From Alloascoidea hylecoeti (taxonomy: Eukaryota): a stretch of 64,000 bases of DNA. Below are positions 27,274-53,499 of the stretch, piece by piece. The notes under the pieces were generated by a model. The model ran no database searches. It saw only the letters and a program-made list of their open reading frames with translations, and was not told the origin of the DNA. Positions within the stretch are counted from its first letter, which is position 1. The number at the start of each line of letters is the position of its first letter. The position numbers were made by a program, and so were the translations under genes. Location: positions 248,001-312,000 of the forward strand of contig BCKZ01000002.1 of assembly GCA_001600815.1 (NCBI GenBank), in the 5' to 3' direction.

Positions 27274-28149
27274 TCAACTTTTATTAATCGTGTGTTTTAC
27301 ATGATTGTAATTGTGTGAATTACCATATCCATTCCCTCTTCTATACCTCTGAAGATTTTGTTGTTGTAATACAGCAGGAATTTTCCTCCTTCTAGCATTA
27401 ATAAACCAGTTTGACAGTTGGCTTGGAGTTAACCCAGTTTTGCTTATCAGCTCAGATTTTTCCTTTTCAGTGGGATATGGATGAGATAGATGTTCCCTAA
27501 ACCATCTCATTAACAAACTTGTAACAGCCTTTGGAAGGTTAGACCTTCTCTTCTTCAAAATATGTGATGAGTTCAAAGTTTCGTTAGTCTCTATTCCTGT
27601 TACTTTCATTTTTGTTTGCTCTTCGGGGGAAGAGAAGGAGATTCTAGGATGCAGAAAACTTTTATCTTTATAAGTGAATTCAGATCTAGGACGTTCAATT
27701 CGAGAAATAGGAACTTCGAAAGGAGGTGATGGTGAAGAGTAAAGATCCTGGCAATCATGAGATGCAATATAAACAGGAAAGATTGGCTTGGGAAGAGAAA
27801 GCTTTTTAGATTGTTCTGAGAGCTGAGAAAGGAGAATCAAATTCTGTTCTTCGACATTGTGTGAAATTGGTCTAAGATTATTTTGTCCCAACAGAGATGA
27901 AGTAAATTGAATCTGAGGCTTAATATCAGAAAAAAGCTCTGAAATTGGAGGTAAAGAGATAGTTCTCTTAGCATTATATCGAGCGCGACTAGAGGATAAT
28001 ATACTATTTACCTCTTCTCTACTCAAAGTGGAATGAGATAGTACCCTTGGTGATTCTCCTGATATGTATAAATTCCTTTCCGATTCCTTGAACATCTGAT
28101 TCTGCAGTGGCTTAAATATGGGGCGTTGTGAAGTGCTATGTAATAACAT
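27274..28149 (-). CDS. CUP9: TALE-class homeodomain transcription factor (Cup9/Tos8 family)
   Basis: KKRRSNLPK..LMRWFREHLSHPYPTEKEK..TGLTPSQLSNWFINARRRKI, plus an N-terminal SLPPISEL motif. Confidence 0.9.
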   Translation of the reverse strand: MLLHSTSQRPIFKPLQNQMFKESERNLYISGESPRVLSHSTLSREEVNSILSSSRARYNAKRTISLPPISELFSDIKPQIQFTSSLLGQNNLRPISHNVEEQNLILLSQLSEQSKKLSLPKPIFPVYIASHDCQDLYSSPSPPFEVPISRIERPRSEFTYKDKSFLHPRISFSSPEEQTKMKVTGIETNETLNSSHILKKRRSNLPKAVTSLLMRWFREHLSHPYPTEKEKSELISKTGLTPSQLSNWFINARRRKIPAVLQQQNLQRYRRGNGYGNSHNYNHVKHTINKS

Positions 28150-31100: not shown

Positions 31101-33879
31101 AGCGAAAAATACAAATTGCTTATAAACTTAGAGAAAGACTTACTAATTCATTGGTTTTTTGTGCTAGAATGGGAATTTGGACTAACATGGTCCAGATCCC
31201 GTTTTATCGCATCGGTGAATGAATTGACATCGATTGTCCGGAAATACACAACAGTCCCGGGAGGAGAACAAACCCCGCATAAATGATAATAATAAAGCCA
31301 TTGCACATATAATTAATCATTCATATAGATCTAAATGGTGTACTCTTAAAATTTCGATGAATTCAAAGTATTGTTTGGAATTAAGATTATAGATATAAAT
31401 TGGGTATATCAATAAAAATCGGACTTTTATATTATAGACCCATATTTGACATTTTGGCAAGTTTAAGTTAATCTAATCTAAAGGGAAACCTTAAGCTTAA
31501 TATTAATTGCAATTTGGAAGAAAAAATATTATAAATATCATATATGAGAGTATATATCGATGATTACTATGCGCTAATTAAATATAATGAAAATTGCCCT
31601 GGAGTTTTGGACATTTCTTTTAGTTAGAACTTTTATATAATAATTTTAATTATTCAAATGAATGCTTTTATTTTCCTTTCCCGTAGCTAGTGAATATTTG
31701 TTAGCTATATGTAGAATTCGAACTCATTTGAACATTTATATTTATAGTTTTTAAAGAACATTCTATGCTATTTTTTTTCATTTACTGAACACATCATTTA
31801 TATATTTTAAAACTGGAATTGTATGATAATAAGTTGCGGTGATAAAATATAATTTTGAAATATATTAAACGTTTATTATTAATTTCAGGCCAACTTTAAA
31901 TAGACTCAGAAACATTTTGCATTCATTTTATAACCTTAGAGTTAGGACAAAGTAAACAAAAGGGGGGGATAGAATTGAGTATATTTTGGATTTAAAAAAA
32001 TAAATATATATATATATTTATAATATTTATTTATGTTATGTTATATTATAAATATATATATAAGTATATCTTGTCTATAACTGTTACGTGAGATTTTGTG
32101 GATTGTAAGATTCTTACCTTCTGCAGGTGTTCTATAAGCGCTAAGATGCAGGGATACTTGTACATATCTTAATTATATATATAAGAGAAGCGATACAAAT
32201 ATTAATCAATATTCAATATTAGTACCATAAAGGAAAACTATTGCCATTATCATTAATATATTATAATGCTAAGTCCCTATAGATATAGATAGATAGATAT
32301 ATATCTATGGTACATCATATATTCGTATAGCTTCCTATATAAAATAAGCACTTAAGCTTAGAGTAGGTAGCAGTACAGAACAATATTGAAACCAAATATT
32401 ACGCATATATGTGCAAAATTCTTATATCGTTTTTACATTTTAGATTAAAGTTAGCATTTAATTCATGATCACTTGATTGGAATTGATTGCAAGGTACTAA
32501 GGTTATATGCATATGTATGAATATTCCATAATGATAATTATACATAAACTTTTGATAGAATATTAAATCTTGCTATATTAGACTTGAAATCAAATAAATA
32601 TAAGTTTAATAAATAAATTTGAGTTGATTTATATTGCAAAATTTCATCTGGAAGTTCACCGTCGCATTAAATGCTATTTTAAATCCATGGGCCTAAACTG
32701 ATTTTTCATGTGGCTGACCTGGAGAAAATGTGATTTTAACAATCCTCATATCCGAATTGATATTCAAAATGCATTTAATTAGCTATAAAATTGTAATAAA
32801 TAGAGTAAAAAGAAGTATTCTTCTATAATTATGATTACTTCGAGGTTGGTCGTATCGATATACTGCGGCAGGTATAGTTATTTACTTGATTAAGTATCTA
32901 TAAGATCGATCCGGAAGCTGAATAATACATTATACTATGTATAGGATTTTGGAGTTTTGTGACAATTAGCTAAGTAGTATTAATTTAAGGTTTTTAATAT
33001 AGTTAGATCTTAATATCAGATAAATATTGGTAAACATATATTATAAATAATTATAGCTGATTTTCATTAATTCTATATATAGAATCGAAACTTGTAGTAA
33101 AATGCCCCTTACAAAACATTTAATATCTCTTGATATTCAGCTCTCTTAAAATTTTCGTAATATAACTATGCAATACATCGAGACTCTTGAATATCTATTA
33201 AATAGAATTGTAATCAGGTGATAAATCTTGCAATTGAGATATTGATCAGTACCTTATAATAGGTATTAAATCCTCTGTAGCTAGTTTTTAGTTCCAAATA
33301 TATCGTCCTCTTCCTATAATACTTTACTACTATTTTCTCGTAACTTTTGGTTTAAAAAGCTCAAACGTATATAGAGTATGCGACTATACGTACTGTAGGT
33401 AGAAATCCTGTAGTGATATAAAAAAATTGAATTCGTAAATTTACAACTTCCTACTATAATCATCATGTTGTATTTTACTTTTTACCTTCCAAATTTATCG
33501 CCCACAAGATAGACTATATGCATGCAGGTATGCTACAGTGTGAATTATGTATTGATGGAGGTGTTATATGCATAATTGTATAGGGTAGTTGGGGACCTTA
33601 ATACTCCGCTCCTTGTAGCTCAGTAGCCGGTAATATTATTACCATTTTTATTTGGAGTGATGACCCAAAAAAGAAGCTGGATTTTAGACTTGGCCAAGCT
33701 GTAGGTGTTGAATCTTTGAGGATTCTTCAAGAATTATTATATGACTATCATATGAGTAGCTGTTTCAGGGATTCACCTTATTGTCATTCTTTTCTTTTAG
33801 TTTACACTGTTTCCGTCTTTTAATATAAATTCATTGAGCGACTGCTCTGTTTCCTTTTTCATCACTATACAACTACCGA

Positions 33880-34310
33880 CAGTGGATAACCAGTACCGTC
33901 TTATGCCCTCCGAGGAGCCTATATGTCCTCAATTGGGGAGAAGATGGCGTTACACAAATTCAACCAAAGATCCTACATACACCAAAATCAAGCCGCTGAC
34001 AGTAAAAAAATACTATGTCGGCGATGATCTATGTAGCATTAGATTAACTTCTTCTAGGGGTTTAGGAAGACTGGAATGTGGCTGTTTGATCCGAACATAG
34101 AGGTTAAATCTGTTTCCATGGATACACCACTAGGAGACAGAATATTATCGAAACCCTAATCTTTTGGCCGAAAACTCACAATATGCACAATAAGCGGAGA
34201 CCGTGTTTTCAACTACTCTGCAGCATCTGCACTGAGTCTGCAGATGTCAAACAATGCGGCCACCCTTAATTATACATGGTAATGGATCTTAGACATCTGA
34301 CGGGAAGAAA
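33880..34310 (+). repeat. Decayed family A repeat, copy 3 (internally deleted)
   Basis: Ordered short matches to 55840-56410: ttatgccct, ggggagaaga, gatgatctatgt (KKY..DDLC), gaaaccc, tttggc.ga.aa, atctgacg.gaag. Confidence 0.6.
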
Positions 34311-36071
34311 TAATACTAGATACACATACACGTATACACTATATATTGTGTTATAATTGTGTTTTTACACCCACGCAATTCCTTTCTATTCTGTTTTCTA
34401 CCAATTTTTTTCAGCCAGGAACATTAAATAAATTTTAAAGAAGTTAAAATTACTATTCAATTAGTATCAGCTATCAGAGATTTCGATACTTGTCTGATGG
34501 AAGATCAAGCTTATGTGCAGTCTCGTGTAGACGTTCTATCATTATCCCACTTACTTTAGGTGCCACTATCTTGAAGTTGGGAACATGTATTTTCACTGTA
34601 GTATTGTGTATCTCTACGAATATTTTTCGTCGCTAATTAAAAGATTCAAAAAATGAAACTCTTTCGGTAAGGTATCAAAATCAACAAAATTAAAAAGATG
34701 TCTTTTTTAGCATATTATTAGTGAGCGTTATTGTCTCTTTTCTTATCACCATAAATACACATTTGTGATAGGTTATTAATTAGAAACCGGATACTTCTAG
34801 ATAAATTGTTTTTACTTCAGGGTAAATTCAATAAACCTTTTAAAATTTTGAGAGCATTGCAAATTCGCAATTGGTTTTGTTCTTTTAAGGGATTCCTTCT
34901 CTCTGTACATGTACAATAAGATAAAATCAAGTTGGGAAATAAATCTAGCCATAGGTTAATCTATTATAAATTTTTGGGAATATTCAATCTTCATATTTTT
35001 TTTTTTTTCCAATTCTGGTACTATTCTTCAAAATTTATTGAAAGACGTAGATAATCACAGCAAAACAAACTTGTCACACACATATAACATGTAAATGCAT
35101 ACGGATATGTCAAATTGAAGCTTGGATATGTAGTCGGGTTAATTCAAAATCAGTTTCCAACTCTAATATCCAACTCTAATACAGTAGAGGGATTAGAACG
35201 ATGTTTAACATACGTACTCAAGCATCAAACATAAATAATGAATTGGCTTGGATTTTACGTTCATTCGAGTACCGGTCCTTTTTACTCCATCATCGTAGAA
35301 GGCACAGGTGGAACCTCTTGAAAATCTCGAATAAATAACTACTCTTTGAATATTTTTGATGTAGCTTCGTAAATGTAAAACTATAAAGCTTATATAATGA
35401 GTTTTAAAGAAAAAGTCTATCGAAACCATTTATTTTCTCCTCCAATTTGGCTTTGCTTACAACTTCTGAAAATGATGACGTTAAATGAAGTTGGAACTCG
35501 ATGGTTGTATATTTTTATCCGAGAACTATATACTTTAAAAGCAATAAACTTTATTTTCTTGGAAGCCAAAAAAGTATTATTTAGATTTTACAAAGCAGAA
35601 CATATGCAGGTTCACGGAAACCTTTTAACACAAATACATACTAGCAGTAGTAGGTCCGGTACTCTTTAAATTTTAACTGGTTAAAACATTAAAGAAAGTG
35701 AAGCTCAAGATTAATAAGGGGGTAAAAGTATTTGTCCAAAAGGAAATAAAGGTGCTAATTGTCTTATTAAATAATATCTCCTCTCTCCCACATTTACCTT
35801 TCCTGTTACTATGTATTTTATTGGTAAGACTCCGGATTAACGTTAGCTGGTTCTTTTTGTACTCCAATTGGGGTTGCCATAGATTTTTACATAAACCTCC
35901 ACTGTTCCAAGTTCAACAAACTTATACTCACACTCCCAAAAATACATTAACATTGAACATATGACTATCCCCACAGCTTTGCTTTTACACATCAATATAA
36001 ATGAAAAACTTTTAATTAAAAATTATCTTTTGAGATACATTTACATAACATATAACGAAACTATTTTTCAT

Positions 36072-36523
36072 TTAAGCAATAGTAGACAGGATGTCAGAGT
36101 CACCAGCATCAATGATAGCCAAAACACCGACACTGAAAAATTTACCACAAGCTGTACCTAGTTCGTTGTTGCCACCTTGAAAATAGTGGACATTGGTCTT
36201 TGACAACATGGCATAGTATTCTAATTCTGATTTTCTTAAAGTTGGTGTGTTTTGAGCAATGATGATCAATTTAGCTTTACCTTGACGGAGGGATTTGACA
36301 GTACTCTTATAACCAAGGGTATATTTACCAGACTTAATAACAAGACCAAGTTTGGAATTGATGTTTTCCTGATTCTTCTTAACTTTTGGGGCCTTTATTA
36401 ATGTTAGTATTTATCGAAATAGAAAGGAAGTCAAGTCATTAATCTCAGTGGTATCTGAATCGCATTAATGACTAACATAGATCTTTGGTATGATCAAAAG
36501 TTTAGGGATATTATACTAACCAT
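36072..36523 (-). CDS. RPL30: 60S ribosomal protein eL30; ATG-only first coding exon, intron 36520-36393
   Basis: [53 protein letters not shown]. Confidence 0.98.
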
Positions 36524-36580
36524 CTCTGTGCTTTTTTATTAAAAATTTATAAGTTTAAATATGTCAAAGCACTCCGGTCT
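36518..36580 (-). promoter_or_regulatory. L30-binding kink-turn autoregulatory RNA element (5' UTR plus 5' splice site)
   Basis: GACCGGAGTGCTTT ... AAAGCACAGAGATG|GTT matches the known yeast RPL30 element GACCGGAGUG...CGCAGAGAUG|GUC. Confidence 0.9.
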
Positions 36581-36648
36581 GTTTGAATGTTTTGAATGTT
36601 TAATGTCTGCGAAGAAAAGAAATTTCACCCTAAATATTTATAACAGAG

Positions 36649-36656
36649 TTACCCGG
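36649..36656 (+). promoter_or_regulatory. Reb1-type site TTACCCGG in the RPL30/RPL24 bidirectional promoter
   Basis: Exact motif, with a Tbf1-like ACCCTAA nearby at about 36627. Confidence 0.55.
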
Positions 36657-36821
36657 ATTATTAATTCTCGGATCTTAGCGTGGTCCTTTATTTACTATAT
36701 CGGTCTGATAACTACTACAGAGTAATCTATAAAACAGTCACAGTTTCCATTTTGAGTTCAATGGACTCAACTTAACTTCAACCTTCTCTTCGACTTTGAT
36801 TTATCAATAACCATAAATTAG

Positions 36822-37097
36822 GTATGTTTCACGAACAATATAAAAACCGAATTGTTACACAGAGGTTTTAAGGGCGAATAATTTGATTGCTGAAAATTAA
36901 TTTGTAAAAACACGATTGAATGAATATGAAATTTAATGGAGATATGCAAATTAATACAAAAATCGGGAGCAGTGACTACTTAAATTTTGAGGAGTACATG
37001 GGACATTAAACCATGATATCGCTTTAAAATGTCTGTGAATATTGGAGGTTATAATAGAAAAAGTATGATGTTCAAATTCCCTAACAGTTATTTGTAG
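36822..37097 (+). other. 5'-UTR intron of RPL24
   Basis: GTATGT at 36822, CCTAAC branch point at about 37080, and TAG at 37097, 6 nt before the ATG. Confidence 0.75.
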
Positions 37098-37103
37098 ACA
37101 GCA

Positions 37104-37628
37104 ATGAAGGTTGAAATTGATTCATTTTCTGGTGCCAAGATTTACCCTGGAAAAGTATGTTGGCGTTTTCACTCTTTTGTTTAAGGGGCTATTTTACATC
37201 TAACATTTTTATAGGGTAAACTTTATGTTAGAGGTGACTCTAAGATTTTCAGATTCCAATCTTCAAAATCAGCATCTCTTTTCCTACAAAGAAAGAATCC
37301 TAGAAGAATTTCATGGACTGTTTTATATAGAAGACAACACCGTAAAGGTATCACTGAGGAAGTTGCCAAGAAGCGTTCCAGAAAAACTGTCAAACGTCAA
37401 CGTGCCATTGTTGGAGCTTCTCTTGAGTTAATCAAAGAGCGTCGTTCTATCAGACCAGAAGTCCGAAAATCACAACGTGAAGCTGCTGCAAAGGCTGATA
37501 AGGACAAGAAGAAGGCTGCAAAGGAACAAAAGAGAGCCGACAAGGTTAAGGGCCTCAAATCTGGTTCCAAGGTTAGCAAACAACAAGCCAAAGGTGCCTT
37601 CCAAAAGGTTCAAGCTACCTCCCGTTAA
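37104..37628 (+). CDS. RPL24: 60S ribosomal protein eL24; intron 37155-37214
   Basis: MKVEIDSFSGAKIYPGK/GKLYVRGDSKIFRFQSSKSASLFLQRKNPRRISWT..KVQATSR. Confidence 0.98.
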
Positions 37629-37865
37629 AATATTCAATTAGAGTAACGACCTGTACACTTTAATATATTAAACTTCTTTTTAGATTCGTCAAATGTAGCT
37701 GCTTTGTAATTCTGAGAACTGCCGTATATATCATACTACGCTACACCCATACATACATGAACCAAAGCTGCTGAATCACTCTCATATGATTGGCTGAAGT
37801 TTTTGATTATTACCAGTTTCTCCATCTCCAACTACCTATTCTATTAAACTCACCAACGAACAAAC

Positions 37866-38729
37866 ATGGGTGTTCATCAAAATCCGCAATCTACCCCTTA
37901 CGAAGTATGTAAAACCAAATGTTTTATCAAAGGATCACAAATAATTGTCCAGTTTCCAATGGTGGGATACCAAATTCAAATTCAATAGTAGTCGAGACAA
38001 ATGAGATATATTCAACTTTCTTTATGAACACGAGATTGATATTCTATAATTGTCATCAATCGATTATTGGATCATGGGAACCAAGAGTTCTGATTTATGA
38101 ATTTCAGAATTTTTGAATTGATCAAACTAGATTTTAACATGCCGATTTTTTTCTCTTAGTTAATTGATTCTGACCCACACTTTAACCGGGTCGTCCGTTT
38201 CTTCAGATCTAGCGACTATGCCGTTTGGGCAGCTGGAACGGTAGGGTTTCCTGCGCTATTACTTCTTATGGAAGGCGTTTCCCCCGTTGGTTCCAAAAGA
38301 TTTAAGGTCCCAGCAGGTATTCATATGCGAACTAGTACTTTATTAGGTTTCTTTGGCGGTTTTCAATTAGCTTATTGTAGATCTACTTTGAGATTTTGGG
38401 GTTGGCAAGAAAATAGCAGAGAAATTGAAAAAGATAGATATGAAACTAAAGCATCTCTTGCTCAGAATATAAATCCATATAATCAAAGATCATCTTTACC
38501 CGCATGGTTACAGGGTATTTCTACTGAAACCACTACTAACTCTCAATTGAACATGGCTATGATTCCACTTGTCAATGTTACACATCATCCATTTCATGGA
38601 ATAGATATCAGAAAATACTACGAGGTCCGACCTGGTGAAGAGAAATGGGGGTTTAATCTTACATTACCCAAGGAGCTTGAAGGAGAGTTTAAAGAGCCCG
38701 TTAAAGAACGACGAATAGGACTATCCTAA
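37866..38729 (+). CDS. Complex I accessory subunit NUXM (20.9-kDa family); intron 37905-38159
   Basis: PYE/LIDSDPHFNRVVRFFRSSDY, GFFGGF..AY.RST.RFWGW.EN.RE and HHPFHGID motifs. Confidence 0.9.
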
Positions 38730-39562: not shown

Positions 39563-42452
39563 ATGGGTGATAAACAAGATGAAGATTATTCCTCTTTACC
39601 AGTGATTGAGAAAATAGTCCACAAGGTAAGTGTGATTTATCATTAAAGTTTTTTAAAATGATTGGCAAGATTTAACCTTTGATCATCACATAGGTTTGGA
39701 AAGTCCGTTCAGAAGGATATCAAGAATTGGCGAAAACCTTTTCTAAATCATCAAGTGATTATGACCCATGTTTTCAGCCATATCTTGATAATCCTGATTT
39801 ATTTCGTAAGGTGGTTACAGATTCTAATGTGGTAGCTCATGAACAAGGCCTGACTGCATTAAATGCGATGCTTGAATTTGGTGGGACCAATGCTTGTTTA
39901 CGATTAAGATCAATGGTATTAGGACCTATGATTGAAAAGTCCATTGGCCAGACAAGAGCTGGAACCAAACAAAAGACACTCGATGCTCTTTGCTGGTTTG
40001 TTGAATTAGACACACCAGACCCAGTTATTGACGAATTATTACCTTTCCTTTCTCACAGAACTCCCAAAATTGTCGCTGCCACGGCCCATGCATTGGTAGA
40101 AATATTAAAACTATTTGGCGCTAAAACTGTGTCTCCAAAGCCTCTGATACCTGTTCTCCCGAAACTATTTGGTCATGCCGATAAAACTGTCAGATCAGAA
40201 GCTTCAAACTTAACTATAGAGCTATATAAATGGATGGGCGACAGCTTAGAAAGCATCATTTTCCCTGATCTGAAACCTGTCCAACAGAAAGATTTAAAGG
40301 CTTCTTTTGAAAAAATCAAAGATGTGCAACCACACCAAGAGCGATACTTAAAATCTCAAAAGGAATCAATGGAAAGACAGCAAGCAAATGGTGTTTCTGC
40401 AGATGGTATGGATGGCGATGCAAACGATGAGGAGGTCGATGAAGGCATTAATACATATGATATGGTTGAAGCTGTTGATGTCCTATCAAAAATTCCAGAT
40501 GACTTCTACTCCAGACTTGGTTCTCCAAAGTGGAAAGAAAGAAAAGCAGCACTGGAGGAAGTTCACTCAATATTTAATGTTATGAAAGTATCAGAAGGTG
40601 ACTTCCATGAAATTATAAGAACTTTAGCAAAATGTATGAAAGACGCAAATCTTCAAGTAGTTACTCTTGCTGCTGACTGTATCACTTATCTTGCCAATGG
40701 TATGAGATCTGCCTTCTCAAAATACCAACAAATAGTAACAGGGCCAATTTTGGAAAGAACTAAGGAAAAGAAACAATCAGTTGCTGATGCTCTTAATGCC
40801 GCTCTTGACGCTATATTTAAAGGGGTAAGTTTGTTTAAATTTATTATTATTATTATCTTATACTAACGGAACATTGTTAAAAGTCCTCATTATCTGATAT
40901 TCTTGAAGTCACTGTTGAAAATATGAACCACAAGACCCCGAATATTAGAATTGAATCCATAAATTTTCTAACAAGATGTCTAAAAGAAACAAAGATTCCA
41001 CCAAAGACTCCAGAGGTTGAACTTATTATGACTGCAGCTATAAAATTGATTGCAGATAATCAAGCTCTAGTTAGAAATGCTATTGCAGAAGCTGTTGGAA
41101 CATTAATGAAGATTACTGGTGAGCGTTCTTTAAATCAACAGATGGAGAAAATTGAAGAAAACAGAAGAGGTAAAATTATGGAATATTTCGAATCAGCTAC
41201 AGTAAAAGCCAAAACACAGAAACCTCCTGCTCCAAAAAAGAGGAAAATATCTGGTGGAATCAAACGTCCAGCACCTAACTCGAACTCTACTGTACCTAAG
41301 AAAACAGCTAAAACAAGCACCCGACCCACTTCACGGCCGTCAACAAGAACGCCTACTTCAAATGTTTCTAACGAGCCCACACCTAAACCGGCACCATCAA
41401 CTAGGATGACACAGGCTAATACAAGAAAAAGATTACCCACCACCGAGAGTAGAAGACCCGGGGCAGCTATGCCACGTCGATCCCCTATACCTCGGGAAGA
41501 GTTTCTTTCTCCTCCACCTAGAAACAATAATTCCAATACCACAAAACCAGTAGCAATAAACAGAGGACTAGCAAGTATGTCATTATCTTCCACTGCTATG
41601 CCTTTAGCTTCTTCAAAATTAGACATATCTTTAAGCGCCGCCGAAAAGGCCGAATTAGAAGAATTAAGATCAGAAAAACTAGTTTGGGAAAAAGAAAGAG
41701 AAAAGCACACTTGGCAAGAACAACAGTTTATTGCTGACAAGACGAGATTCATGCACGAAATTACTTCTATTCATGTACAAAACGCCAAATTAATTGATGA
41801 TCACGCAAGAGAAATTTTATCTTATAAAGCTAAGGAAACACGATTGATGCGTGTTGAATCCGAATTGGATATTGAAAAGTCAAAGGTTGAAAAACTTGAA
41901 CATGAGATTGAAAAAATGCGTCTTAATTTACAAAAACAAGCATCAGATATGGAAAAAGAGAGATCAATAGAATCTTCGGTTCAGAGCATTAATTCAATTT
42001 CTTCCTCTAGTGAGTTTGGAAAGCCATCTCCTTTGAAAGAATCTGTTAAATCTACTAGATCCAATTTTATCCCAAGCAGTGGCATTAGATATAACCCACA
42101 ACAAAATACAAATTCAAGGCAGCGACCATCCGCTTTCGAGCGACCCATTACGCGTGGACCTCCTCGATTTTCACAGGATCAAAAGGAAAATCGAATAGCA
42201 TCATCACAGTCGTTTGTAAAGTCTGATGATTTAGAGGATCATCTTAAATCGCCAACTAGATATAGGCCGAATGGAAGGCAGAGCCTAGCCAAACGGCCTT
42301 TACGAGAAGAAGATGGGCATAAAACGATAATTCCACCAGGTAAAACTGAAAACTGGAAAAGAACAAGTGAGGTTACTAGTCAACTACGGGCAAGAATAGA
42401 GAATATGAAGAAAAGAAGTCTTCAACCCCAAACATCTTTGTATAATCGATGA
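39563..42452 (+). CDS. STU2: XMAP215/Dis1-family microtubule polymerase Stu2; introns 39626-39693 and 40825-40883
   Basis: TOG1 (HK/VWKVR, DSNVVAHE), TOG2 (KWKERK.ALEE, KDANLQVV, RTKEKK), basic linker, coiled coil, and C-terminal WKRTSEVTSQLRARIENMK. Confidence 0.95.
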
Positions 42453-42722
42453 TTTTTAAATTAATCTACAGGTTTTCATTATGGTTTTTTTACGTGTTGA
42501 TGTCGTCGGTCTGCATATGTTTTCTCTTTTGTTATATTAATATTTAGCTCATGTATATTTCCAATTGCAAATTGAACAAACCTATGTTATCAGCATTATA
42601 TTATATATGTAAAATATTTTCTTCACTCCCATAAAATGAACATTCGTTTTATGTCCTTAAAAGTTGAGGAAAACGGGTAGTTTCGTGTGTTATATGTGTA
42701 TTATTATAAAATATTGGATCAG

Positions 42723-45680
42723 TCATATGGTGAACCGATTATTAGGTGATACTTCATTTAGGTATTCTTCTACGAATTCGCCTTGGATTGTTTGTAAAAC
42801 CCTTCTGACTTCCCATTTAAAAGATTGTGTTCGGCCAAATGGATAGTTAATAGGAGGTAAATATGGTTCTAAATGTTTAGCAATAGAACGGATACATGCC
42901 GATTGTCTTGGGAATGCGGGATAGGTTTGATCATTCCATCTCAACTGAATAGTCTTATAATTCCCTTCATCATGGTACCAGAACCAACAGGAGGAGATAT
43001 TAGGATTTGTATAGCTAGCTTCAAGTAACTTTTCCCGCAATTGTAATAGTCTTAGATCCCTTTCGGTAAAATAAATGACTTTTCTTTCTTCGGGTGTCAT
43101 ACCAACAAGCTCTTCATTTTCAATTATATCCGCTTCTAATAACAGTCTAAAACAATATGCCCTTGCAGCAACATGTGAAATGAATCCTTTGATTGGCTTT
43201 CCTAGTTTTTTGCATTGTATTCTGAAATCATAAATCGTCCTACTCCATAGATCCATTACTTGATATCTATCTAAATCAGGAGGAAATAAATTGAAAAAGT
43301 TTTGCAATATGAAATCAACAAATATAACATCATATTCCTGACTAAATGTGAAAAGGTATGATTGTTCTGAAGCCAATTGATCACCGTCCGTTTTCCTCTT
43401 AAGGAATCTTTTCCCTGGTTTCCACATATCCCTCGGTCTTTTATCAAATTTAAAATCCATTGGAGGTAGATATCTCTCAAGATTTTTAGCAATAAAACGA
43501 ATGTAACCACTCACCTCACTAATATTATAAGATCCTGGATGCTTACTTTGTAGGATCCCGACATTTTCGAATTCATCTTCACCATTTAATTTCAACCAAG
43601 TATTCTTAAAACGAATGATACCGTCTTCTTGTAAAATTGACCATATTCTCCATAGATCATTGGATTTCTGATCAGCTTGAAATAAGAATTTATCCGCAAG
43701 TATTTTTGATGGTGATTTTTCAGTAATCTCCAAGTCAAATCCATAAAGTAATTGGTACAAGTAAGATCTTGCAGATAATGGACTAATATCTCCAACTATT
43801 GGCATTGCAGAATCAGCACATGTTATTCTAAAGTCTTGAATTACCTTTTCCCATAGTTTCATATGGTCAACTAAATTTCTTTCGTTTTCGTTGCTGTTTG
43901 ATGAAAAGAACGTTAGATATACTAACCTTGTAAATATAAAGTTATAGGATTCATTAAAGACAAAAAGTTTAGGCCCGCGACCAGATATTGATATTGTTTG
44001 ATCATTATGTCGATTTTGATTTTGATGTTTCCCATTAGCGGACAATAGTCGATCGGGAATATCCTGTTGTAATGTAATAGAGTCAGTCCTTGGTCTTGCT
44101 GGTGAGAATTGGTTGGTGATAATTGATGACTGGCGTGATTGTAACTTAATATTATTCATATTATTACGGGAAGAAGCGAGTTCTGCAGCTGGTGTTCCTC
44201 TGGTAACTTTATTGGGTGTAATATTAATATACTGGCTATTAGAGTTTGGGATAAAGTTTGGTGCAACAGAATTTGGGATTGAAATGCTAGATGTGCTTTT
44301 TCTTGGTCTTCCTCTCCCCCTTCCTCGTTTGCTTTTAGCGACAGATATTGAGCCGTTTCGGGTTGGAGATTCAGAAGAAAGCGTAGCATTATTATTATTG
44401 TTATTGGTGTTTGAAAGAGAAGATAAAGCGGCTGATATTGAACGAGGGGAAATAGTAGTATTATTGGCAAATGTTGTAGGCAGCTCGGGTTGCCCTTGGT
44501 TATGTATAACGTAGCTCGAAAGTGGAGAGGCTGTTTCTGAAGCCAATCGTTGTCTTTTGGCCGTATGGTGAATTGATTCATTTTGAGAAGAGAATGAATG
44601 ATGTCTCACCCTCGTTTCAATAGGTTCCATCTCTAGAACAGGGGCTGAAATCTGTGGCAGATGTGAAAAAGGTTCATTTCCTGCCCTTTTTGAAACGTTA
44701 TCTGGGACTAATGATGCCCGTGGACTATCTAAGGAATTATTACTAACATAAGTGCTGATACTAGTTCTCTTATTGTTTGGATCTATTGTCATTGTTATAT
44801 TGGTATTGATATTAGATGTGTCTTTGGGTGAAGTATTGTCATTGATATTGGTGGAATCAAATTTTGATTTGTCTTCAGTTGTGACTTCATCATTGACATT
44901 GTTTCTGTTAGTTGCTTTACCATTTTTCACATTATGTTGATGCTTTTTCTCGTACAATTCCTCAAATGTCTTACCATTCTTATCGGCTATGATTCGCCTG
45001 ACTCTCCAATCTTTTGATTCTGGAACCGAAAGAGTATAATTGATAGGAGGTAAATATTTCTCTAATTTCTTCGCCATTGCTCTAATATAGGCATTTTGTA
45101 TATTAAATTCATGATTCTCATCATTCTGATCCCATTTTATGGTAATCGTTCTAAATTTCTTTTCATCGGGGAATCTAAACCAAACTTTTTGATTATTTGC
45201 CAGATCATTGTTTAGTACTTTTGCCCATAGTCTAATTAAAGATTTTGTACGATCGGTTGTGTTTATTAAATGTTTTTGAAATTGATCATTTGTAAGACCC
45301 GATAATTGGTCGTTAATGAAGATATCAGCTTCTAAAAGCAAACGAAAGCAATAGGCCTGTACAGCTCGTGTATTGAAGCATCCGGTGAAAGTTTTGTTAT
45401 TGAGTGAACATTCATGGTGGAATTCAGTGGTCACTTGAGACCACAGTTTTGATAAAGATAGATGTGTGGCTGGATCTTCGTTTTCAAATTGATCAAAGAA
45501 CACTTTTATAACAGCAGACACAAAGTATATATCGTATTCCATGGAGAATATAAATAAAGGACTTGAAGAGCTCTTATCATTTTCTCTAGGCGGAGTCTTT
45601 AATTTTGAAGATGATAGTGGGGAAGAGCTATGCCTGTTGGACAAAGACATCAGTTCGTTTACTGAATCTGCTGTCGACAT
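42723..45680 (-). CDS. Uncharacterised 985-aa protein with three ~190-aa internal repeats and an AT-hook
   Basis: Intronless ORF. Repeats at aa ~42-230, ~572-760 and ~776-960, and KRGRGRGRPRKS in a disordered linker. Confidence 0.85.
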   Translation of the reverse strand: MSTADSVNELMSLSNRHSSSPLSSSKLKTPPRENDKSSSSPLFIFSMEYDIYFVSAVIKVFFDQFENEDPATHLSLSKLWSQVTTEFHHECSLNNKTFTGCFNTRAVQAYCFRLLLEADIFINDQLSGLTNDQFQKHLINTTDRTKSLIRLWAKVLNNDLANNQKVWFRFPDEKKFRTITIKWDQNDENHEFNIQNAYIRAMAKKLEKYLPPINYTLSVPESKDWRVRRIIADKNGKTFEELYEKKHQHNVKNGKATNRNNVNDEVTTEDKSKFDSTNINDNTSPKDTSNINTNITMTIDPNNKRTSISTYVSNNSLDSPRASLVPDNVSKRAGNEPFSHLPQISAPVLEMEPIETRVRHHSFSSQNESIHHTAKRQRLASETASPLSSYVIHNQGQPELPTTFANNTTISPRSISAALSSLSNTNNNNNNATLSSESPTRNGSISVAKSKRGRGRGRPRKSTSSISIPNSVAPNFIPNSNSQYINITPNKVTRGTPAAELASSRNNMNNIKLQSRQSSIITNQFSPARPRTDSITLQQDIPDRLLSANGKHQNQNRHNDQTISISGRGPKLFVFNESYNFIFTRLVYLTFFSSNSNENERNLVDHMKLWEKVIQDFRITCADSAMPIVGDISPLSARSYLYQLLYGFDLEITEKSPSKILADKFLFQADQKSNDLWRIWSILQEDGIIRFKNTWLKLNGEDEFENVGILQSKHPGSYNISEVSGYIRFIAKNLERYLPPMDFKFDKRPRDMWKPGKRFLKRKTDGDQLASEQSYLFTFSQEYDVIFVDFILQNFFNLFPPDLDRYQVMDLWSRTIYDFRIQCKKLGKPIKGFISHVAARAYCFRLLLEADIIENEELVGMTPEERKVIYFTERDLRLLQLREKLLEASYTNPNISSCWFWYHDEGNYKTIQLRWNDQTYPAFPRQSACIRSIAKHLEPYLPPINYPFGRTQSFKWEVRRVLQTIQGEFVEEYLNEVSPNNRFTI

Positions 45681-48600
45681 AAAATCCAGAAGTATTTCTT
45701 TAGTTTTTTTATTTCTGTACTTTTAAATATTTATACTATATAAGACAATTTTTAGAGGTGCACGTTGTTATGTTATATTCATCAAGGAGGCGGTAAGAAT
45801 TATAAGGTTGGTATGGTACGGACCAAAAGAATCGAAAGCAACGGCAGGAGGTGATTTAGCGGAGGGGAGGAAGAAGGATGAAAAATGAGATATGGAGACA
45901 TATATATAATTAATTTAAGCTTATTTTGCAAAATATGCCCTGATTTCCAAGAAGGTAGGGATGTTTTTTTTCTCCTGAATCCACTTTTCAATGGGTGGGA
46001 TTTTCTGATTTTCTGTTCGGCTGCTTGTAAATGTAATAACTACGAAGCTTGAAGAGCGCAGGATTGATCCAGCAGAAACCCTGTTCTGTAAGATCCATCT
46101 ACTTCAGTATAAACTTCACATAAACCTCCATATAAATTGCCCATTGTTCATCCCTGTGCCACATAATATATTATGTGACCAATTCGGCTTCTTTAAGCGA
46201 AATTTCGTAGAATTTCATGTCGAACAAGATTAAAAGAAGAACCCGATAAACCGATGGAAACTCGTACCTAATAGTGCCACCTACTCTTCTGATGATAATT
46301 AATCAAATGAACAATATTTATACTGATTGATGATAAACGGTTGTAACGTTAACTAACTACCCTGTAACCTGAATGGCTACCGAAAATAGTAGACTTCGCA
46401 CCTTTATAGCCCTTCAATACTGTGGCTTGAAGTTAATTTCAATATCAAGTATTATTAACCACTGTCATGAAGAACAAAAAGAAAAAGAGATTTAGAGAAA
46501 AAAGCACAAAGAATATTTAATACGAATATGATCCACTATTTAATCTCATATTCACATATCCATATGTAATAATATATGAAATGTAGTAGCCAATATTTTT
46601 GCACATTTTGCAGCACCAGTAAATAATATAATAATATTTCAAGAGTGCCAGTGAAATATTTTGATAATATGTTAATGTTCAATTGCAATATTTATTAATT
46701 AAAGAAATTTGGGTGCTAACCACATGAAGCATATAAGTACTTTATATAAATTTAAAAAGCACCAAATTATTACCCAACATTTATATTTTAAATGCATAAT
46801 GCATAGAATCCAAGGAAATTTGTTTGATCTTCATATTATATTTATATTAATTTCTAACTTTATTTATTAATATAAGTAATTTTTCAGCTCGGATTTTTAA
46901 TTGGATATAAATGTTAATCTTGTAATTATAGTGCAAGTATCACTCCACAATTGTAATATATTCAGGGTCAAACTTAAAAAAACAAAAAACAATTCAAATT
47001 GATAAATAAAAAAGAAGAATCTTCTTTTATTATCTTTAGAGTACAATTAATTATAATACAACTATTTAATTGCTTATAATTATAACTAAACATAACCACC
47101 AAGCTAGGCCTAGATATACCGGTATAAACTGTATATAAATGTTATAGTTGTAGCTAGGAGTTTTCCGAGTACTTGAGTTTTTAGAAGAAGCATATGTAGA
47201 TTTACAGAGTAATATTACTATTAATATTTTGAAAAGTACGTGTACCTATATAGCTAATATATAAACTCCAGTTTGAAATAACACATGATCACTTTTAAAC
47301 GAAAAAAAAAGAAAAAAAAAATGATCATTACATATTTAAATAATACCAGTACTGTATCTCCAATAAATCCCTGAAGCTTGAACCCCAAAACCTGAAACTT
47401 CTAACGTGAAAACGAAAGCTTACCGAAAGGAATTTTGATTATTAGTTATAATAGTTCACATCACCTTTAGACTTGATTGATGAGATCAATTAGCGGTATA
47501 CTTAACTATTAGACAAATGAGTTTTAATAACTATAGGCCTAGAATATGCTGTATTGGTCATAATTATGTATATAGTTTTAAACACAGCTTGAATTTAATA
47601 GAACATTAATTAATTAATCAATCATCATCATCAAGCTCAATTGCAATATTAATCATTATTAATTGCATGGTTATCTTTTACACCTCTAGATCTATAAACA
47701 AATAAATACTAGTTTCAAAAATATAAAATGAAGTATAAGTTTTGATAATTCTTAATCACAGAAAAATATTTTTTGATTATAATAATAATCATTTTTAATT
47801 AAGTTTTAAAAACATATTTGCGGTTCACTGTAAGGTTATACATTTACAGCATTATAATACTCACTTGAGCAACGAACTAATATAATAGAAATATAGCTAT
47901 ATAGATATATAAGTTATAGATACATGGATTATAGCATTGTTTTGGTCCATTATTAATAACAGGTTTAACATTAATATTTACATCAAATTTAATTCTATAT
48001 CTAATTACTATAATTATGAATTTATACTAATATATATTTATGCTCCAACGTCGACACATAATCACCAGTTTTATTTTAGAATTTCAAAGTTCTTAAACTT
48101 CCAAAATATACGATCTTCTTTGGGTTAAATGAATTTATAGGTTCTCACAAAAGTTTTCTATAGAAAAAATATGAAGATAGGTCAGTTATAAAACTGTGGC
48201 TTAAAGTACAGTGCATGTTGTGTATAGACACTACAACGTTATATAATTAACAAATGTAATTAGTATTTAGATATCATTAGCATGAACAAATCTATATATA
48301 ACACTAAGTATTAGACGAAGTGAATTTAAATGAATAAAATGATGGTTCAAGCTGAATACAAGTAAGATTATAATTACAAATAGAAGTAGAAATAGAAATG
48401 TAAATTAACTTTATTGCCACACTTCGTTCCTGATATTAATAGAAATTAAGCGAAAAATTCCTCTATTTTGTTAATAAATCTTTGTAACATCATTTGTATA
48501 AACTTAAGCAATAGCTAAATATAAGTCAAATATTCTAATTTCCCTACAAACACTTATAGTTGATCCCATCCGTCAGGCCTTTTCTGTGAATTCAATTAAA

Positions 48601-49084
48601 GTAAAAGTTAAATTTTCAATTGATAATGAGCGGAGAATACTATATTATCTGAATTGATACAATAAGGACATTAACTCTAGATCTATATCTATTATACAAT
48701 TTGTATGGGATTATTAATAATACCCAGTAAGCCACAATTTTTGTGAATACTTTTTATCAAAATATGGCCTTAATCATAACTCTAATATAGGGATAATTGA
48801 AATCAAAGACTAGTTTCAAATTGTTAATTATAGTTATATTATATAGAGAAAAATATTTCTGTCAGTTTCTCAATACAGAGATTTTTCCAGAGCTTATATA
48901 ATTCGATTGAAAATATATGATCATGAAGCTAAAGAGAACAAAATTTACAATCACAAATTCACTTAAATACAATTGAAAACAATAATATAATAATAATGGA
49001 AAAATCCATAAATGGTACTCGAAGCTCACAAGCTACGAAATTTCAAGCTAAAAAGATGGATTTCAATATTAATAATCAACCAGC

Positions 49085-49092
49085 TCACGTGA
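49085..49092. promoter_or_regulatory. E-box TCACGTGA (Cbf1/Tye7-type bHLH site)
   Basis: Perfect palindrome about 190 bp upstream of the TDA10-like ATG. Confidence 0.45.
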
Positions 49093-49281
49093 TTGATGTA
49101 TGATAATAATTAAATAACCTGCAATATTAACTTCACCACTTTGCATTCAATTGCAATATAAAAATAATCCTTTATAAGATATTAGAGCTATAATTATAAA
49201 GTGCTGCTATTATCGGTTGAACCAACAAAGGATTACTGTTCTCCAACAAAAAACAATATATTTTCATAATAATAAAATAGC

Positions 49282-50680: not shown

Positions 50681-53499
50681 TTAATTCCTTGCTATGGCTA
50701 ATTTCCTTGTTGATGCCTTATTTTGTTGTTCGACCATATTTTTACTTCCCTTGTTAACATTTTGTTGTTTCAAATTTTCGGATGAACTATTCCTAACATT
50801 GTTTCCCATCGTATAAGATGAATCAGAGGTAGTAACTGGCAGATTGCTTGCGCTTGATCTCGATTGAGCAGGTACGCTCACACAGGGATTTTTATTTACA
50901 ATATTTTTAATTTCGGATTTGCTTGAATCACCTTTCATCTCACTCTCCAATTTAGTAATATCTATGTTCTCTTCCGCATTATATTGTGCGGCTTTTTCAG
51001 ATGTAAATTTATGCGTATTCATGAGGTCAGTAGGGGTAATCACTTTTTCTTCTAATTGTGCCTTAGTATTGGTAGTAGTTTCATCAGAAGGAAAATCCTC
51101 AGTATCCCGTAACTTACCTTTGCCTTTCGTAACCGGTTCTTCGGATTTTGAAGCTGGATTAGACTTGTATTTGATGCTGTCAACACTAGTTGGATTGGAA
51201 GATGCAAGGGAGCATGATGCACCGTTAACTTTTAGAGAATGATCTATGGCCATGCTCGTTGCAGATCTTGAAGGGTCGGAAATTTCATTATTGGCCTTTT
51301 TAGTAGAATCGTCAAACTTTTGAGTTGACTTGATATCTTTCGATTTATCTTGAGTAACATTAATATTTACTCCTGAGCAGTTATATATGCTTGATGTAGT
51401 GCTTGTAGGAGGAGAAGAATCATCGATTCCATTTTCTTGGGCTGTCTCTTCGATATTTTGCGAGGTAGTTATTGGGAATCCATTAAACACAGGTCGTTCA
51501 GTTGGTGGGGCTTGTTCTTCAGACAGGGAAAATGATTCTAGAGGAATTCTAAAATCAAAATGCTCAGACTCAGCGGCTCCATCTGTAGTTCCGAAACGTA
51601 CATTGTTCATTATTTCAAACGCATGTTGAAGTTCATTTAGAAAAATCTCCAGACCTTCTGTTCCTCTTTCTTCATCCTCATCCTCATCTTCATCGTCGTA
51701 TTCATCTTCGTAATAATTATTCCATACAATCCAATGACTCGCTTCATCATCGTTCCAATATGCTTCATCTCCATCTTCAGAATCGTTAATTGTATAAACG
51801 GAACCATCCTCTGAACCGACTTCATTGACCCCTCGAGATAATATAATCCCACTAGACGCTATATTATCTTCTATCCTTTCCAAAACTATCAATTGCTCTT
51901 TATTGAAATCATGCTCATCAATATCACTGTCATCATCTCCATCTCCGTTATTATGATTATTCAGTCGAGTAAAATCAGCAATATGACCATCAAAGAGTAT
52001 ATCAAGACCTTTATCATCTATATCATTAAAGCGATAATAAATACTTGAAAATCTTTTATCCGTATTTTTCACTTTTTTCAATTCTTTTTCACAAAGATTA
52101 GTAAGATCAGGTCTGTTAATTGATATTTTACCCAATGCGAGAAACCCTTCGGCCTCGTCTATTATAGTTTTTCGAAATGCTGACGTTAGCATCTTATTAT
52201 AAAATTCATCTGGTAGAATAGCCCTTAAAGGTCGAATAGAATGTTTAACAATTGATTCATCTGTCTCTTGTTTTGGGGTAGGAATTTCATCTTTTCTCTC
52301 TCCATTTAAGGACAAGATACAATGTTCAATATAAGGTCCTGCTCGTCTGTAAACAATCGCTAGCAGCTTCAAAACATATCTATCATATTTAAAAATCTGC
52401 TTCCGTGGGGTAGCATCTAAATCTTTAAAACTTTCATCTTCGTCGTCGTATTCACCGTTGTACTTATTGAGACATTGGGCTAATGGATCTTTCTTAATCG
52501 GAGAAACCGTCGAATAGGCATAAATATATAAAAATGTTAATAAACCATAGCTTAAAGAATAATCAATCATCCAGAGATCACTTTCAAATGATTTAAACAA
52601 CAACATGGCTGAACGGCGTATATTACTGCGGATAGTTCTGTAGTGATGAATCGGCTTATATCCCGGTAGTTCTTTTGATGATGAGTTTTCCATATTTAAC
52701 GTAGATTTCATTGGTAAATGAGTCTCTGGATCTAGTACTGGAAAAGGTAAAGAATTTAATGATTCAAACATTCCATCAATTATTGATTCTATGAATTTTA
52801 TATCGGTTATAAAAGTTGTTTGAGATGGAGATAATGTATTGAGTAATAGATGTAATACCCGTAAACCTTTTTCTCTTTCTTTCTCATCTTTTCCCGACAC
52901 CTTAGATAAGACATATTTAATAAATGACTTGGAGGTCACCACTTTTTTACATAAAACTTTAAGTGATCTAATTTTTTGAAAGAAAAGGTTAGTTTGAGCA
53001 CTGAGTGTTAAAAAAATTGAAGGAGATAGGAAAATACATACAAATCTTTTAGACCTGAATCGGTAGTGGAATGGAAACTTAACAAAGAATCATATGGTAT
53101 ATCTTTAACACCAAATTTTGAATCTTTCTTCTTTGGTTTATCTTTCATTATTGTGAAATCTTCAGTTGGATTTACCAACATGTCTTCATTATATTTGTTC
53201 ACTATAACCTGAAATAGTTGTTGACTTTCTTGGCCCCATTCATCAGTGTCTGCATAATATCCAAAGGAACTAGCGTTTTTACCATTTGTAGTATTCGTTG
53301 CAGATTTCTTGTTTTCATGCTTCTTCCTGATTTCTTTCAATTTGGATCTTACTATCATGAATGCTTTATCTCTAGAGTACTCCTTTTCCTCAACATCCAC
53401 ATCCCAGGATACAACTTGCCAGAATGAAAAGGTGACCGAAGCTACCAACAGCGAGCACGTTAAGGCCGCTGTTCCGATATCTTTCCAGGGCATGGACAT
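50681..53499 (-). CDS. Uncharacterised signal-anchored protein with helical (armadillo-like?) core and acidic disordered tail; intron 53041-52968
   Basis: A GTATGT..ACTAAC..TAG intron joins the 163-aa and 753-aa ORFs in frame. N-terminal hydrophobic segment AALTCSLLVASVTFSFW. Confidence 0.75.

What the first reader, a model, noticed from the sequence alone, without database searches (positions are those of the whole stretch)
42723..45680. Orphan 985-aa protein with a triplicated, unrecognised ~190-aa domain and an AT-hook
Seen: three homologous units at 45557-44991, 43967-43405 and 43355-42798. They share LF.F...Y...F (LFIFSMEYDIYFV / LFVFNESYNFIFT / LFTFSQEYDVIFV), LW......F...C (LWSQVTTEFHHEC / LWEKVIQDFRITC / LWSRTIYDFRIQC), G.......AYCFRLLLEADI (units 1 and 3; SYLYQLLYGFDL in unit 2), a WF...DE..F segment, and IR..AK.LE.YLPP..Y..W (IRAMAKKLEKYLPPINY / IRFIAKNLERYLPPMDF / IRSIAKHLEPYLPPINY). 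The Ser/Asn-rich linker carries an AT-hook, KRGRGRGRPRKS (about 44296-44332), and an NLS-like AKRQR. Inference: the aromatic spacing in the first half of each unit recalls Myb/SANT/MADF trihelix folds. This may be an undescribed lineage-specific multi-domain DNA/chromatin-binding protein. I cannot assign it to a known family.
Basis: partly seen in the sequence, partly recalled or inferred. Interest (0 to 1): 0.78.

Follow-up and report, generated by a model that had tools for sequence, protein, structure and literature searches.

The report
Orphan yeast protein, three Sap1-like modules
A real but sequence-orphan fungal gene encodes a 985-residue protein made of three old copies of a two-part module whose helical half is predicted to fold like the Myb-type DNA-binding domain of fission-yeast Sap1, joined by a basic disordered linker with an AT-hook, so it is probably a lineage-specific chromatin or DNA-binding protein.

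Summary
The ORF at 42723-45680 (-) is an uninterrupted 985-aa frame. It contains exactly three homologous units of about 200 aa (aa 37-253, 567-770, 771-984), with pairwise BLASTP E-values of 2e-18 to 3e-43.

No sequence relative was found by any search: Pfam, PDB sequences, exhaustive phmmer over 1.84 billion representatives, three word-indexed searches, a JGI metagenome scan and the ESM Atlas.

DNA binding is not shown, and the helical halves are acidic.

Verdict: a new, lineage-restricted variant of a Myb-type module. Moderate interest.

The parts
42723..45680 (-). Intronless coding sequence, 985 aa plus stop (P0001)
   Evidence: identical in contigs of three runs
44922..45572 (-). Unit 1 (aa 37-253): helical N-half plus β/α C-half
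   Evidence: hmmsearch domain 1, i-E 5.5e-114; BLASTP to unit 3 E 2.9e-43
43983..44921 (-). Linker (aa 254-566), rich in Ser/Asn/Thr, basic, presumably disordered
   Evidence: For aa 246-571, 326 residues: pI 10.5, net +16, S 50, N 45, T 29. No unit-like stretch
44547..44558 (-). KRQR basic cluster (aa 375-378), NLS-like
   Evidence: function inferred only
44295..44330 (-). AT-hook-like motif KRGRGRGRPRKS (aa 451-462)
   Evidence: Pfam AT_hook 12.5 bits, E 0.15, below the 17.4 cut-off
43371..43982 (-). Unit 2 (aa 567-770), the most diverged copy; lacks the terminal β-hairpin
   Evidence: hmmsearch domain 2, i-E 1.4e-99; alignments A1 and A2
43392..43442 (-). Basic cluster KRPR...KRFLKRK (aa 747-763) at the junction of units 2 and 3, resembling a bipartite NLS
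   Evidence: function inferred only
42729..43370 (-). Unit 3 (aa 771-984), the copy that was modelled
   Evidence: hmmsearch domain 3, i-E 1.7e-109; AF2 model pLDDT 76, pTM 0.76
42990..43355 (-). Unit 3 N-half (aa 776-897): predicted four-helix Myb-type bundle with extension helix, Sap1-like
42756..42989 (-). Unit 3 C-half (aa 898-975): predicted β-α-β-β subdomain carrying the invariant IR..AK.LE.YLPP helix; fold unassigned
   Evidence: modelled alone it reaches only pLDDT 49.6, pTM 0.25
45681..49281 (.). 3.6-kb AT-rich upstream intergenic region with no ORF of 60 aa or more lying wholly inside it; presumably the promoter and regulatory region

Best explanation
This is a genuine, single-copy, lineage-restricted gene of an ascomycete yeast-like fungus. 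It encodes a nuclear chromatin or DNA-associated protein.

The protein arose by two ancient internal duplications of a two-part module of about 200 aa. The first part (about 125 aa) is an enlarged Myb-type three-helix bundle with a long fourth 'extension' helix. Its closest known structure is the DNA-binding domain of S. pombe Sap1. The second part (about 75 aa, basic) is a small β/α subdomain of unassigned fold that carries the most conserved motif, IR..AK.LE.YLPP.

One module sits at the N-terminus. Two sit head-to-tail at the C-terminus. A basic disordered linker of about 310 aa lies between them and carries one canonical AT-hook.

Most likely mechanism (inferred, not shown): the AT-hook and the basic C-halves and linker anchor the protein on AT-rich DNA, while the three Myb-type modules read several neighbouring sites. 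Covalent repetition would then do what coiled-coil dimerisation does for Sap1.

Shown here: the gene, the triplication, the orphan status, the motif positions and the charge distribution. Predicted: the fold. Inferred: nuclear location, DNA or chromatin binding and multivalency.
For: - Gene reality. A 985-codon open frame lies in DNA of about 35% GC. Three copies of 25-38% identity still share 31 invariant, mostly hydrophobic or aromatic core positions. This implies long-term selection on a fold. The sequence is identical in contigs of three runs from three studies.
- Fold. The AF2 model of unit 3 with A1 has pLDDT 76 and pTM 0.76, and the 10-residue block means for residues 1-120 run 71-93.
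- Fold class. 18 of 50 rows are Myb/SANT/trihelix-type domains. Sap1 and NgTRF1 are the very pair the Sap1 paper reports as structurally alike: a myb-type HTH plus an α4 extension (PMC6053445, section 6).
- DNA and nuclear features. The AT-hook core is at aa 451-462. The linker has pI 10.5 and net +16. The C-halves have pI 9.2, 9.5 and 7.8. Basic clusters sit at aa 375 and 747-763.
- Host context. Neighbouring genes are ordinary fungal nuclear genes: Stu2/TOG, TCO89, SKG6, PEX11, Cid1-type PAP. A neighbour's nearest Atlas clusters are mostly Ascomycota. There are no flanking terminal repeats.
Against: - Structural alignments show only 8-10% identity. No sequence search links the units to Sap1 or to any Myb family.
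- The Myb-like halves are acidic (pI 5.7, 5.1, 5.2; net -3 each). They have no invariant basic residue in the predicted recognition helix. This is unusual for sequence-specific Myb DNA-binding domains.
- 17 of 50 VIA rows are TetR-family regulators, so part of the signal is generic helical packing.
- The C-half could not be modelled alone.
- The AT-hook is below Pfam's cut-off.
- There are no expression data: no RNA holder was listed, which is a blank and not evidence.
Confidence: 0.45

Rival explanations
1. SANT-type scaffold. The three helical halves are Myb/SANT-fold modules that bind proteins or histone tails, not specific DNA. Only the AT-hook and the basic linker touch DNA. The protein would be a chromatin-complex subunit or adaptor.
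For: The N-halves are acidic (pI 5.1-5.7, net -3). Their invariant positions are all hydrophobic or aromatic, apart from one Cys, one Gly and one Asp. SANT/SLIDE, CoREST and DMAP1 rows are among the fold matches: 1ofc, 4b4c, 2y9z, 4iej, 2v1d, 6tuy. That SANT domains tend to be acidic and Myb DNA-binding domains basic is recalled knowledge, not a call.
Confidence: 0.25
2. The unit is a helical-plus-β two-domain module unrelated to chromatin, for example a COMMD-like HN + COMM-type or other oligomerisation module. On this view the Sap1 resemblance is a common helical arrangement.
Against: These rows have TM 0.15-0.19, rmsd about 20 Å and prob 0.05-0.14. There is no Pfam COMM hit at E <= 10. The predicted strand and helix order of the C-half (β-α-β-β or β-β-α-β-β) differs from the COMM order as I recall it (three strands, then a helix). 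The AT-hook and basic linker point to DNA.
Confidence: 0.12
3. Domesticated or decaying mobile-element gene, for example the Myb-like accessory protein of a DNA transposon that was triplicated.
For: Myb/SANT/trihelix DNA-binding proteins are commonly encoded by transposons (recalled knowledge). The protein is an orphan.
Against: No terminal direct or inverted repeats flank the gene; only short, AT-rich, chance-like matches were found. There is no transposase, integrase or recombinase domain. There is no second copy in the window, and none in the protein library that holds this protein. The gene sits among ordinary housekeeping genes.
Confidence: 0.05
4. Unexpressed or non-functional open frame.
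For: No RNA evidence could be obtained, and no orthologue is known.
Against: A 985-codon stop-free frame in AT-rich DNA cannot arise by chance (inference). Three old copies keep a common hydrophobic core, and AF2 folds it with pTM 0.76.
Confidence: 0.03

Closest known systems
S. pombe Sap1 (switch-activating protein 1) DNA-binding domain (PDB 6ext, 6exu, 5jdk, 5b7j)
   Different: There is no detectable sequence similarity (8-10% identity in structural alignments; no hit). Here the domain is followed by a β/α subdomain, not Sap1's coiled coil as described in PMC6053445 (passages). It is triplicated in one chain of 985 aa, carries an AT-hook linker, and has acidic helical halves. A review states that S. 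cerevisiae has no apparent Sap1 homologue (PMC5368702, passage).
Plant/telomeric Myb domains with C-terminal extension (NgTRF1, PDB 2qhb) and TRF/Tbf1 Myb domains
   Different: The helices here are much longer (16-22 residues; a domain of about 125 aa against about 60-85). There is no Pfam Myb hit at E <= 10 and no telobox-type signature was detected.
SANT/SLIDE, CoREST and DMAP1 SANT domains
   Different: The scores are weaker than for Sap1, there is no sequence match, and the size and context differ.
AT-hook proteins (HMGA type)
   Same: One motif with the Arg-Gly-Arg-Pro core flanked by Lys/Arg, inside a disordered basic region.
   Different: There is only a single hook, and it is below the Pfam cut-off (12.5 against 17.4 bits). 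The bulk of the protein is folded modules, unlike HMGA.

Membership tests
Myb/SANT DNA-binding domain superfamily | Match to a Myb/SANT sequence profile (Pfam Myb_DNA-binding and relatives) | tested here: not met
   hmmscan of the whole protein against Pfam-A at E <= 10 returned only AT_hook and DUF4123, both below cut-off
Myb/SANT DNA-binding domain superfamily | Three-helix bundle with helix-turn-helix geometry | tested here: met
   [not shown]
Myb/SANT DNA-binding domain superfamily | Regularly spaced aromatic core residues, one per helix | tested here: inconclusive
   Invariant aromatics lie in each predicted helix (Y13/F17/F25/F26, W42/F49, Y72). The spacing is about 25-30 residues, not the roughly 19 of classical Myb repeats (the latter figure is recalled)
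Sap1 family | Sequence homology to Sap1 | tested here: not met
   Sap1 chains are in the PDB sequence set, yet neither phmmer with the protein nor hmmsearch with A1 at E <= 10 reported them. Structural alignments show 8-10% identity
Sap1 family | Four-helix DBD (myb-type HTH plus α4) | tested here: met
   [not shown]
Sap1 family | Coiled-coil dimerisation domain C-terminal to the DBD | tested here: not met
   In the model the DBD-like half is followed by strands and a short helix (E138-145, H155-166, E188-194, E199-203), not a coiled coil
Sap1 family | Binding to TAACG-type sites and replication-fork barrier activity | not testable with these tools
   Needs EMSA, ChIP and 2D gels
AT-hook | Gly-Arg-Pro core flanked by basic residues | tested here: met
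   KRGRGRGRPRKS at aa 451-462
AT-hook | Pfam AT_hook at or above the gathering score | tested here: not met
   12.5 bits against 17.4, E 0.15
   [not shown]
COMMD (HN + COMM domain) | COMM domain profile, or a fold match of both domains | tested here: inconclusive
   [not shown]

The most novel reading that the evidence does not exclude
The protein is a true, very distant relative or functional counterpart of fission-yeast Sap1 in another ascomycete lineage. Sap1 is so far regarded as having no apparent homologue in budding yeast. Here covalent triplication of the Sap1-type domain has replaced coiled-coil dimerisation, and each domain has gained a new β/α subdomain. It would bind arrays of direct repeats, such as rDNA spacers, LTRs or nucleosome-free promoters. 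It would act as a polar replication-fork barrier or as a general regulatory factor.
Probability: 0.12. Interest if true: 0.65.

Novelty: new variant of a known kind. Interest (0 to 1): 0.4.

Why it matters
If the prediction holds, the Sap1-type 'Myb plus extension' domain is not confined to fission yeasts. It also occurs in a quite different architecture: three covalent copies, each fused to an undescribed β/α subdomain, plus an AT-hook. That would give a second, independent system for studying how multivalent Myb-type binders organise nucleosome-free regions, fork barriers or retroelement targeting. It would also add a new sequence family to the Myb/SANT fold class.

Taken more soberly, this is an example of a fast-evolving, lineage-restricted chromatin protein in a poorly sampled yeast lineage. 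Such orphans are common, and without orthologues or expression data its role remains conjecture.

Tried and rejected
- **Whole genome.** None is held for this window, so paralogues elsewhere in the genome could not be searched directly.
- **Word-indexed homologue searches.** The whole protein and profile A1 with 'longer' lengths found only the protein itself. Both were capped at 8000 candidates. A1 with 'near' lengths found none of 1475 candidates at E <= 10.
- **Exhaustive phmmer with unit 3.** Four proteins scored E <= 0.001: the protein itself and P0002, P0003 and P0004. I reject those three as spurious. Their matches are 24-36-residue stretches repeated 3-8 times in highly repetitive proteins (a 1750-aa calcium-binding-repeat-like protein and two tandem-repeat translations).
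- **JGI metagenome scan with A1.** 471 pattern matches, none confirmed by tblastn.
- **ESM Atlas with unit 3.** No usable hit.
- **PDB by sequence.** Anoctamin-10 at E 1.9 and mimivirus R596 at E 0.19. Neither recurs in the fold searches, so I took both as chance.
- **C-half alone (A2).** AF2 gave pLDDT 49.6 and pTM 0.25. The model is too poor to search, so the C-half fold is unassigned, not shown to be new.
- **BFVD viral fold search.** Nothing at E <= 0.001. The best row had E 0.061 and TM 0.17.
- **Complex prediction, unit 2 against unit 3.** The verdict was 'no answer' (score 0.00, the alignments were not used, and the partner's fold was uncertain). This is no evidence either way on whether the tandem units pack together.
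- **Sequencing runs.** No RNA holder was listed, so there is nothing on expression.
- **Read laying.** Contigs of X1, X3 and X4 are identical to the window over 42600-45800. There are no variants to judge selection, and all three may be sources of this DNA.
- **Repeat search around the gene.** Only short AT-rich matches, with no transposon ends and no DNA-level repeat between the units.
- **Bacterial promoter/terminator scan.** Not meaningful for a eukaryote.
- **Earlier-findings look-ups.** All empty.
- **Literature.** Searches for Sap1 structure and homologues turned up no paper describing a triplicated Sap1-like protein. This covers only the held library and those terms.
Full report
**1. 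The observation**

The window is AT-rich eukaryotic DNA, with GC 0.27-0.38 per 2 kb. The minus-strand frame at 42723-45680 is open for 985 codons from its first ATG and reads the same under the standard code (P0001).

BLASTP between slightly extended units gave these results:

| Pair | Identity | Columns | E-value |
|---|---|---|---|
| unit 1 vs unit 3 | 38.0% | 208 | 2.9e-43 |
| unit 1 vs unit 2 | 25.1% | 175 | 2.0e-21 |
| unit 2 vs unit 3 | 27.3% | 187 | 1.8e-18 |

The MAFFT alignment A1 has 31 invariant columns. A profile built from A1 finds exactly three domains (aa 37-253, 567-770, 771-984). It finds nothing else in the linker or in any other six-frame segment of the window.

KRGRGRGRPRKS lies at aa 451-462 (window 44295-44330) and KRQR at aa 375-378.

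There is no DNA-level repeat between the units. Together with 25-38% protein identity, this means the duplications are old.

**2. Context**

Neighbouring ORFs carry ordinary fungal families:
- a Stu2/XMAP215 TOG protein with the Stu2 C-terminal segment, convergent with the gene
- TCO89, SKG6, PEX11, GH53, a Cid1-type poly(A) polymerase, a PP1/PPZ-like phosphatase, a TALE homeobox protein, an eIF4A-like DEAD-box helicase and a Ras-family GTPase

The TOG gene holds a short intron with a TACTAAC box at 40861-40867. The nearest Atlas clusters of the poly(A) polymerase neighbour are mostly Ascomycota. So the host is an ascomycete, yeast-like fungus.

The stretch occurs in four DNA data sets from three studies. 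Three are assemblies of about 25-27 Mb of one coded organism, and one is a wood-decay metagenome. Contigs of the three runs laid (X1, X3, X4) are identical to the window over the gene.

No terminal repeats flank the gene. The 3.6 kb upstream (45681-49281) holds no ORF of 60 aa or more lying wholly inside it.

**3. Sequence searches: a true orphan as far as these tools see**

- Pfam at E <= 10: only AT_hook (12.5 bits, cut-off 17.4) and DUF4123 (12.3 bits, cut-off 25.8).
- PDB sequences: nothing credible with the protein or with profile A1.
- Exhaustive phmmer of unit 3 against 1.84 billion representatives: the protein itself plus three repetitive proteins matched over 24-36-residue stretches, which I reject as spurious.
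- Word-indexed searches with the protein and with A1, at 'longer' and 'near' lengths: only the protein itself, or nothing.
- JGI metagenome scan: 471 pattern matches, none confirmed.
- ESM Atlas: no usable hit.

The protein's own entry is present in these libraries, yet no paralogue from the same organism surfaced. The gene is therefore probably single-copy. No whole genome was available to check this directly.

**4. Fold**

AlphaFold2 on unit 3 with the three-row alignment A1 gave mean pLDDT 76 and pTM 0.76.

Residues 1-127 form four long helices (H11-26, H35-55, H66-87, H103-121) with mostly high confidence; the 10-residue block means for residues 1-120 run 71-93. Residues 128-205 form strand-helix-strand-strand (E138-145, H155-166, E188-194, E199-203) with lower confidence (58-83).

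The fold searches gave the following:
- **Foldseek.** No match at E <= 0.001. It gave Sap1 prob 0.91 and TMt 0.64 at E 0.61.
- **Row make-up.** By their titles, 18 of 50 rows are Myb/SANT/trihelix-type domains: TRF, Tbf1, Zeste, GT-1, ISWI and CHD1 SANT-SLIDE, RAD, PHR2, Cdc5L, DMAP1, ARR1, CoREST, TEBP-2. Another 17 are TetR-family regulators.

The Sap1 structure paper describes the Sap1 DBD as a myb-type HTH (α1-α3) plus a long α4 'myb extension', most similar to NgTRF1. In that paper α3 is modelled in the major groove, and DNA binding depends on the C-terminal coiled coil (PMC6053445; I read passages and section 6). My top two matches are thus the same pair that paper links.

The C-half modelled alone (A2) reached only pLDDT 49.6 and pTM 0.25. 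It is not an independently predictable domain, and its fold remains unassigned.

**5. Charge and motifs**

| Region | pI | Net charge |
|---|---|---|
| Helical N-halves (units 1, 2, 3) | 5.7, 5.1, 5.2 | -3 each |
| C-halves (units 1, 2, 3) | 9.2, 9.5, 7.8 | +3, +4, +1 |
| Linker (aa 246-571) | 10.5 | +16 |

The linker is dominated by Ser, Asn and Thr, and it contains the AT-hook. A basic cluster, KRPR...KRFLKRK (aa 747-763), sits between units 2 and 3.

In the N-half the invariant positions are hydrophobic or aromatic, plus one Cys, one Gly and one Asp. The only invariant basic residues are the Arg and Lys of the C-half helix IR..AK. Unit 2 has lost the terminal β-hairpin.

**6. Interpretation**

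My best reading (confidence about 0.45) is a lineage-restricted nuclear protein that engages chromatin or DNA multivalently through:
- three enlarged Myb-type (Sap1-like) modules
- their basic β/α appendages
- a basic linker with one AT-hook

Covalent repetition, with units 2 and 3 directly head-to-tail, would supply what dimerisation supplies in Sap1.

The acidity of the helical halves keeps a SANT-type protein- or histone-binding reading alive (0.25). A non-chromatin two-domain module, with a weak COMMD-like lead from Foldseek's E-value ranking, cannot be excluded (0.12). A mobile-element origin (0.05) and a non-functional ORF (0.03) are unlikely.

**7. Comparison with the known, and novelty**

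The protein works, at most, like a Sap1/TRF-type Myb reader. It is not a demonstrable member of the Sap1 family: sequence homology and the coiled coil were tested and not met, and only the predicted fold was met. A review notes that budding yeast has no apparent Sap1 homologue (PMC5368702, passage).

I rate it a new variant of a known kind. It is a new sequence family and a new architecture within the Myb/SANT fold class, carrying one unassigned subdomain.

Interest is moderate (0.4). The triplication and the Sap1 resemblance are noteworthy. However, orphans in isolated yeast lineages are common, and nothing functional is shown.

Noticed in passing
window 39727-42452 (+): A Stu2/XMAP215-type TOG protein gene, convergent with the focal gene. 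It is split into two ORFs (39868-40866 and 40923-42452) by a short intron with a canonical TACTAAC branch-point box at 40861-40867. The first ORF's tail (…LFKFIIIIILY) is probably intron read-through. The N-terminal TOG part seems to begin upstream of 39868, so a further exon or a different start is likely.
   Followed up: partly
window 28150-38268: About 10 kb of very AT-rich DNA (GC 0.28-0.33) with only one ORF of 90 aa or more. It lies upstream of a TALE (Homeobox_KN) homeodomain gene at 27274-28149 (-). It could be a very long regulatory region, intron-rich genes missed by ORF listing, or a centromere-like or gene-desert stretch.
   Followed up: no
[not shown]
   Followed up: no
window 45681-49281: A 3.6-kb ORF-free, AT-rich upstream region in front of the focal gene (GC 0.27 for 46001-48000). 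This is unusually long for a yeast promoter and hints at complex regulation.
   Followed up: partly
window 4311-5741 (+) and 50681-52771 (-): Two further long ORFs (476 aa and 696 aa) with no Pfam family at E <= 0.001. They may be additional lineage-specific proteins.
   Followed up: no
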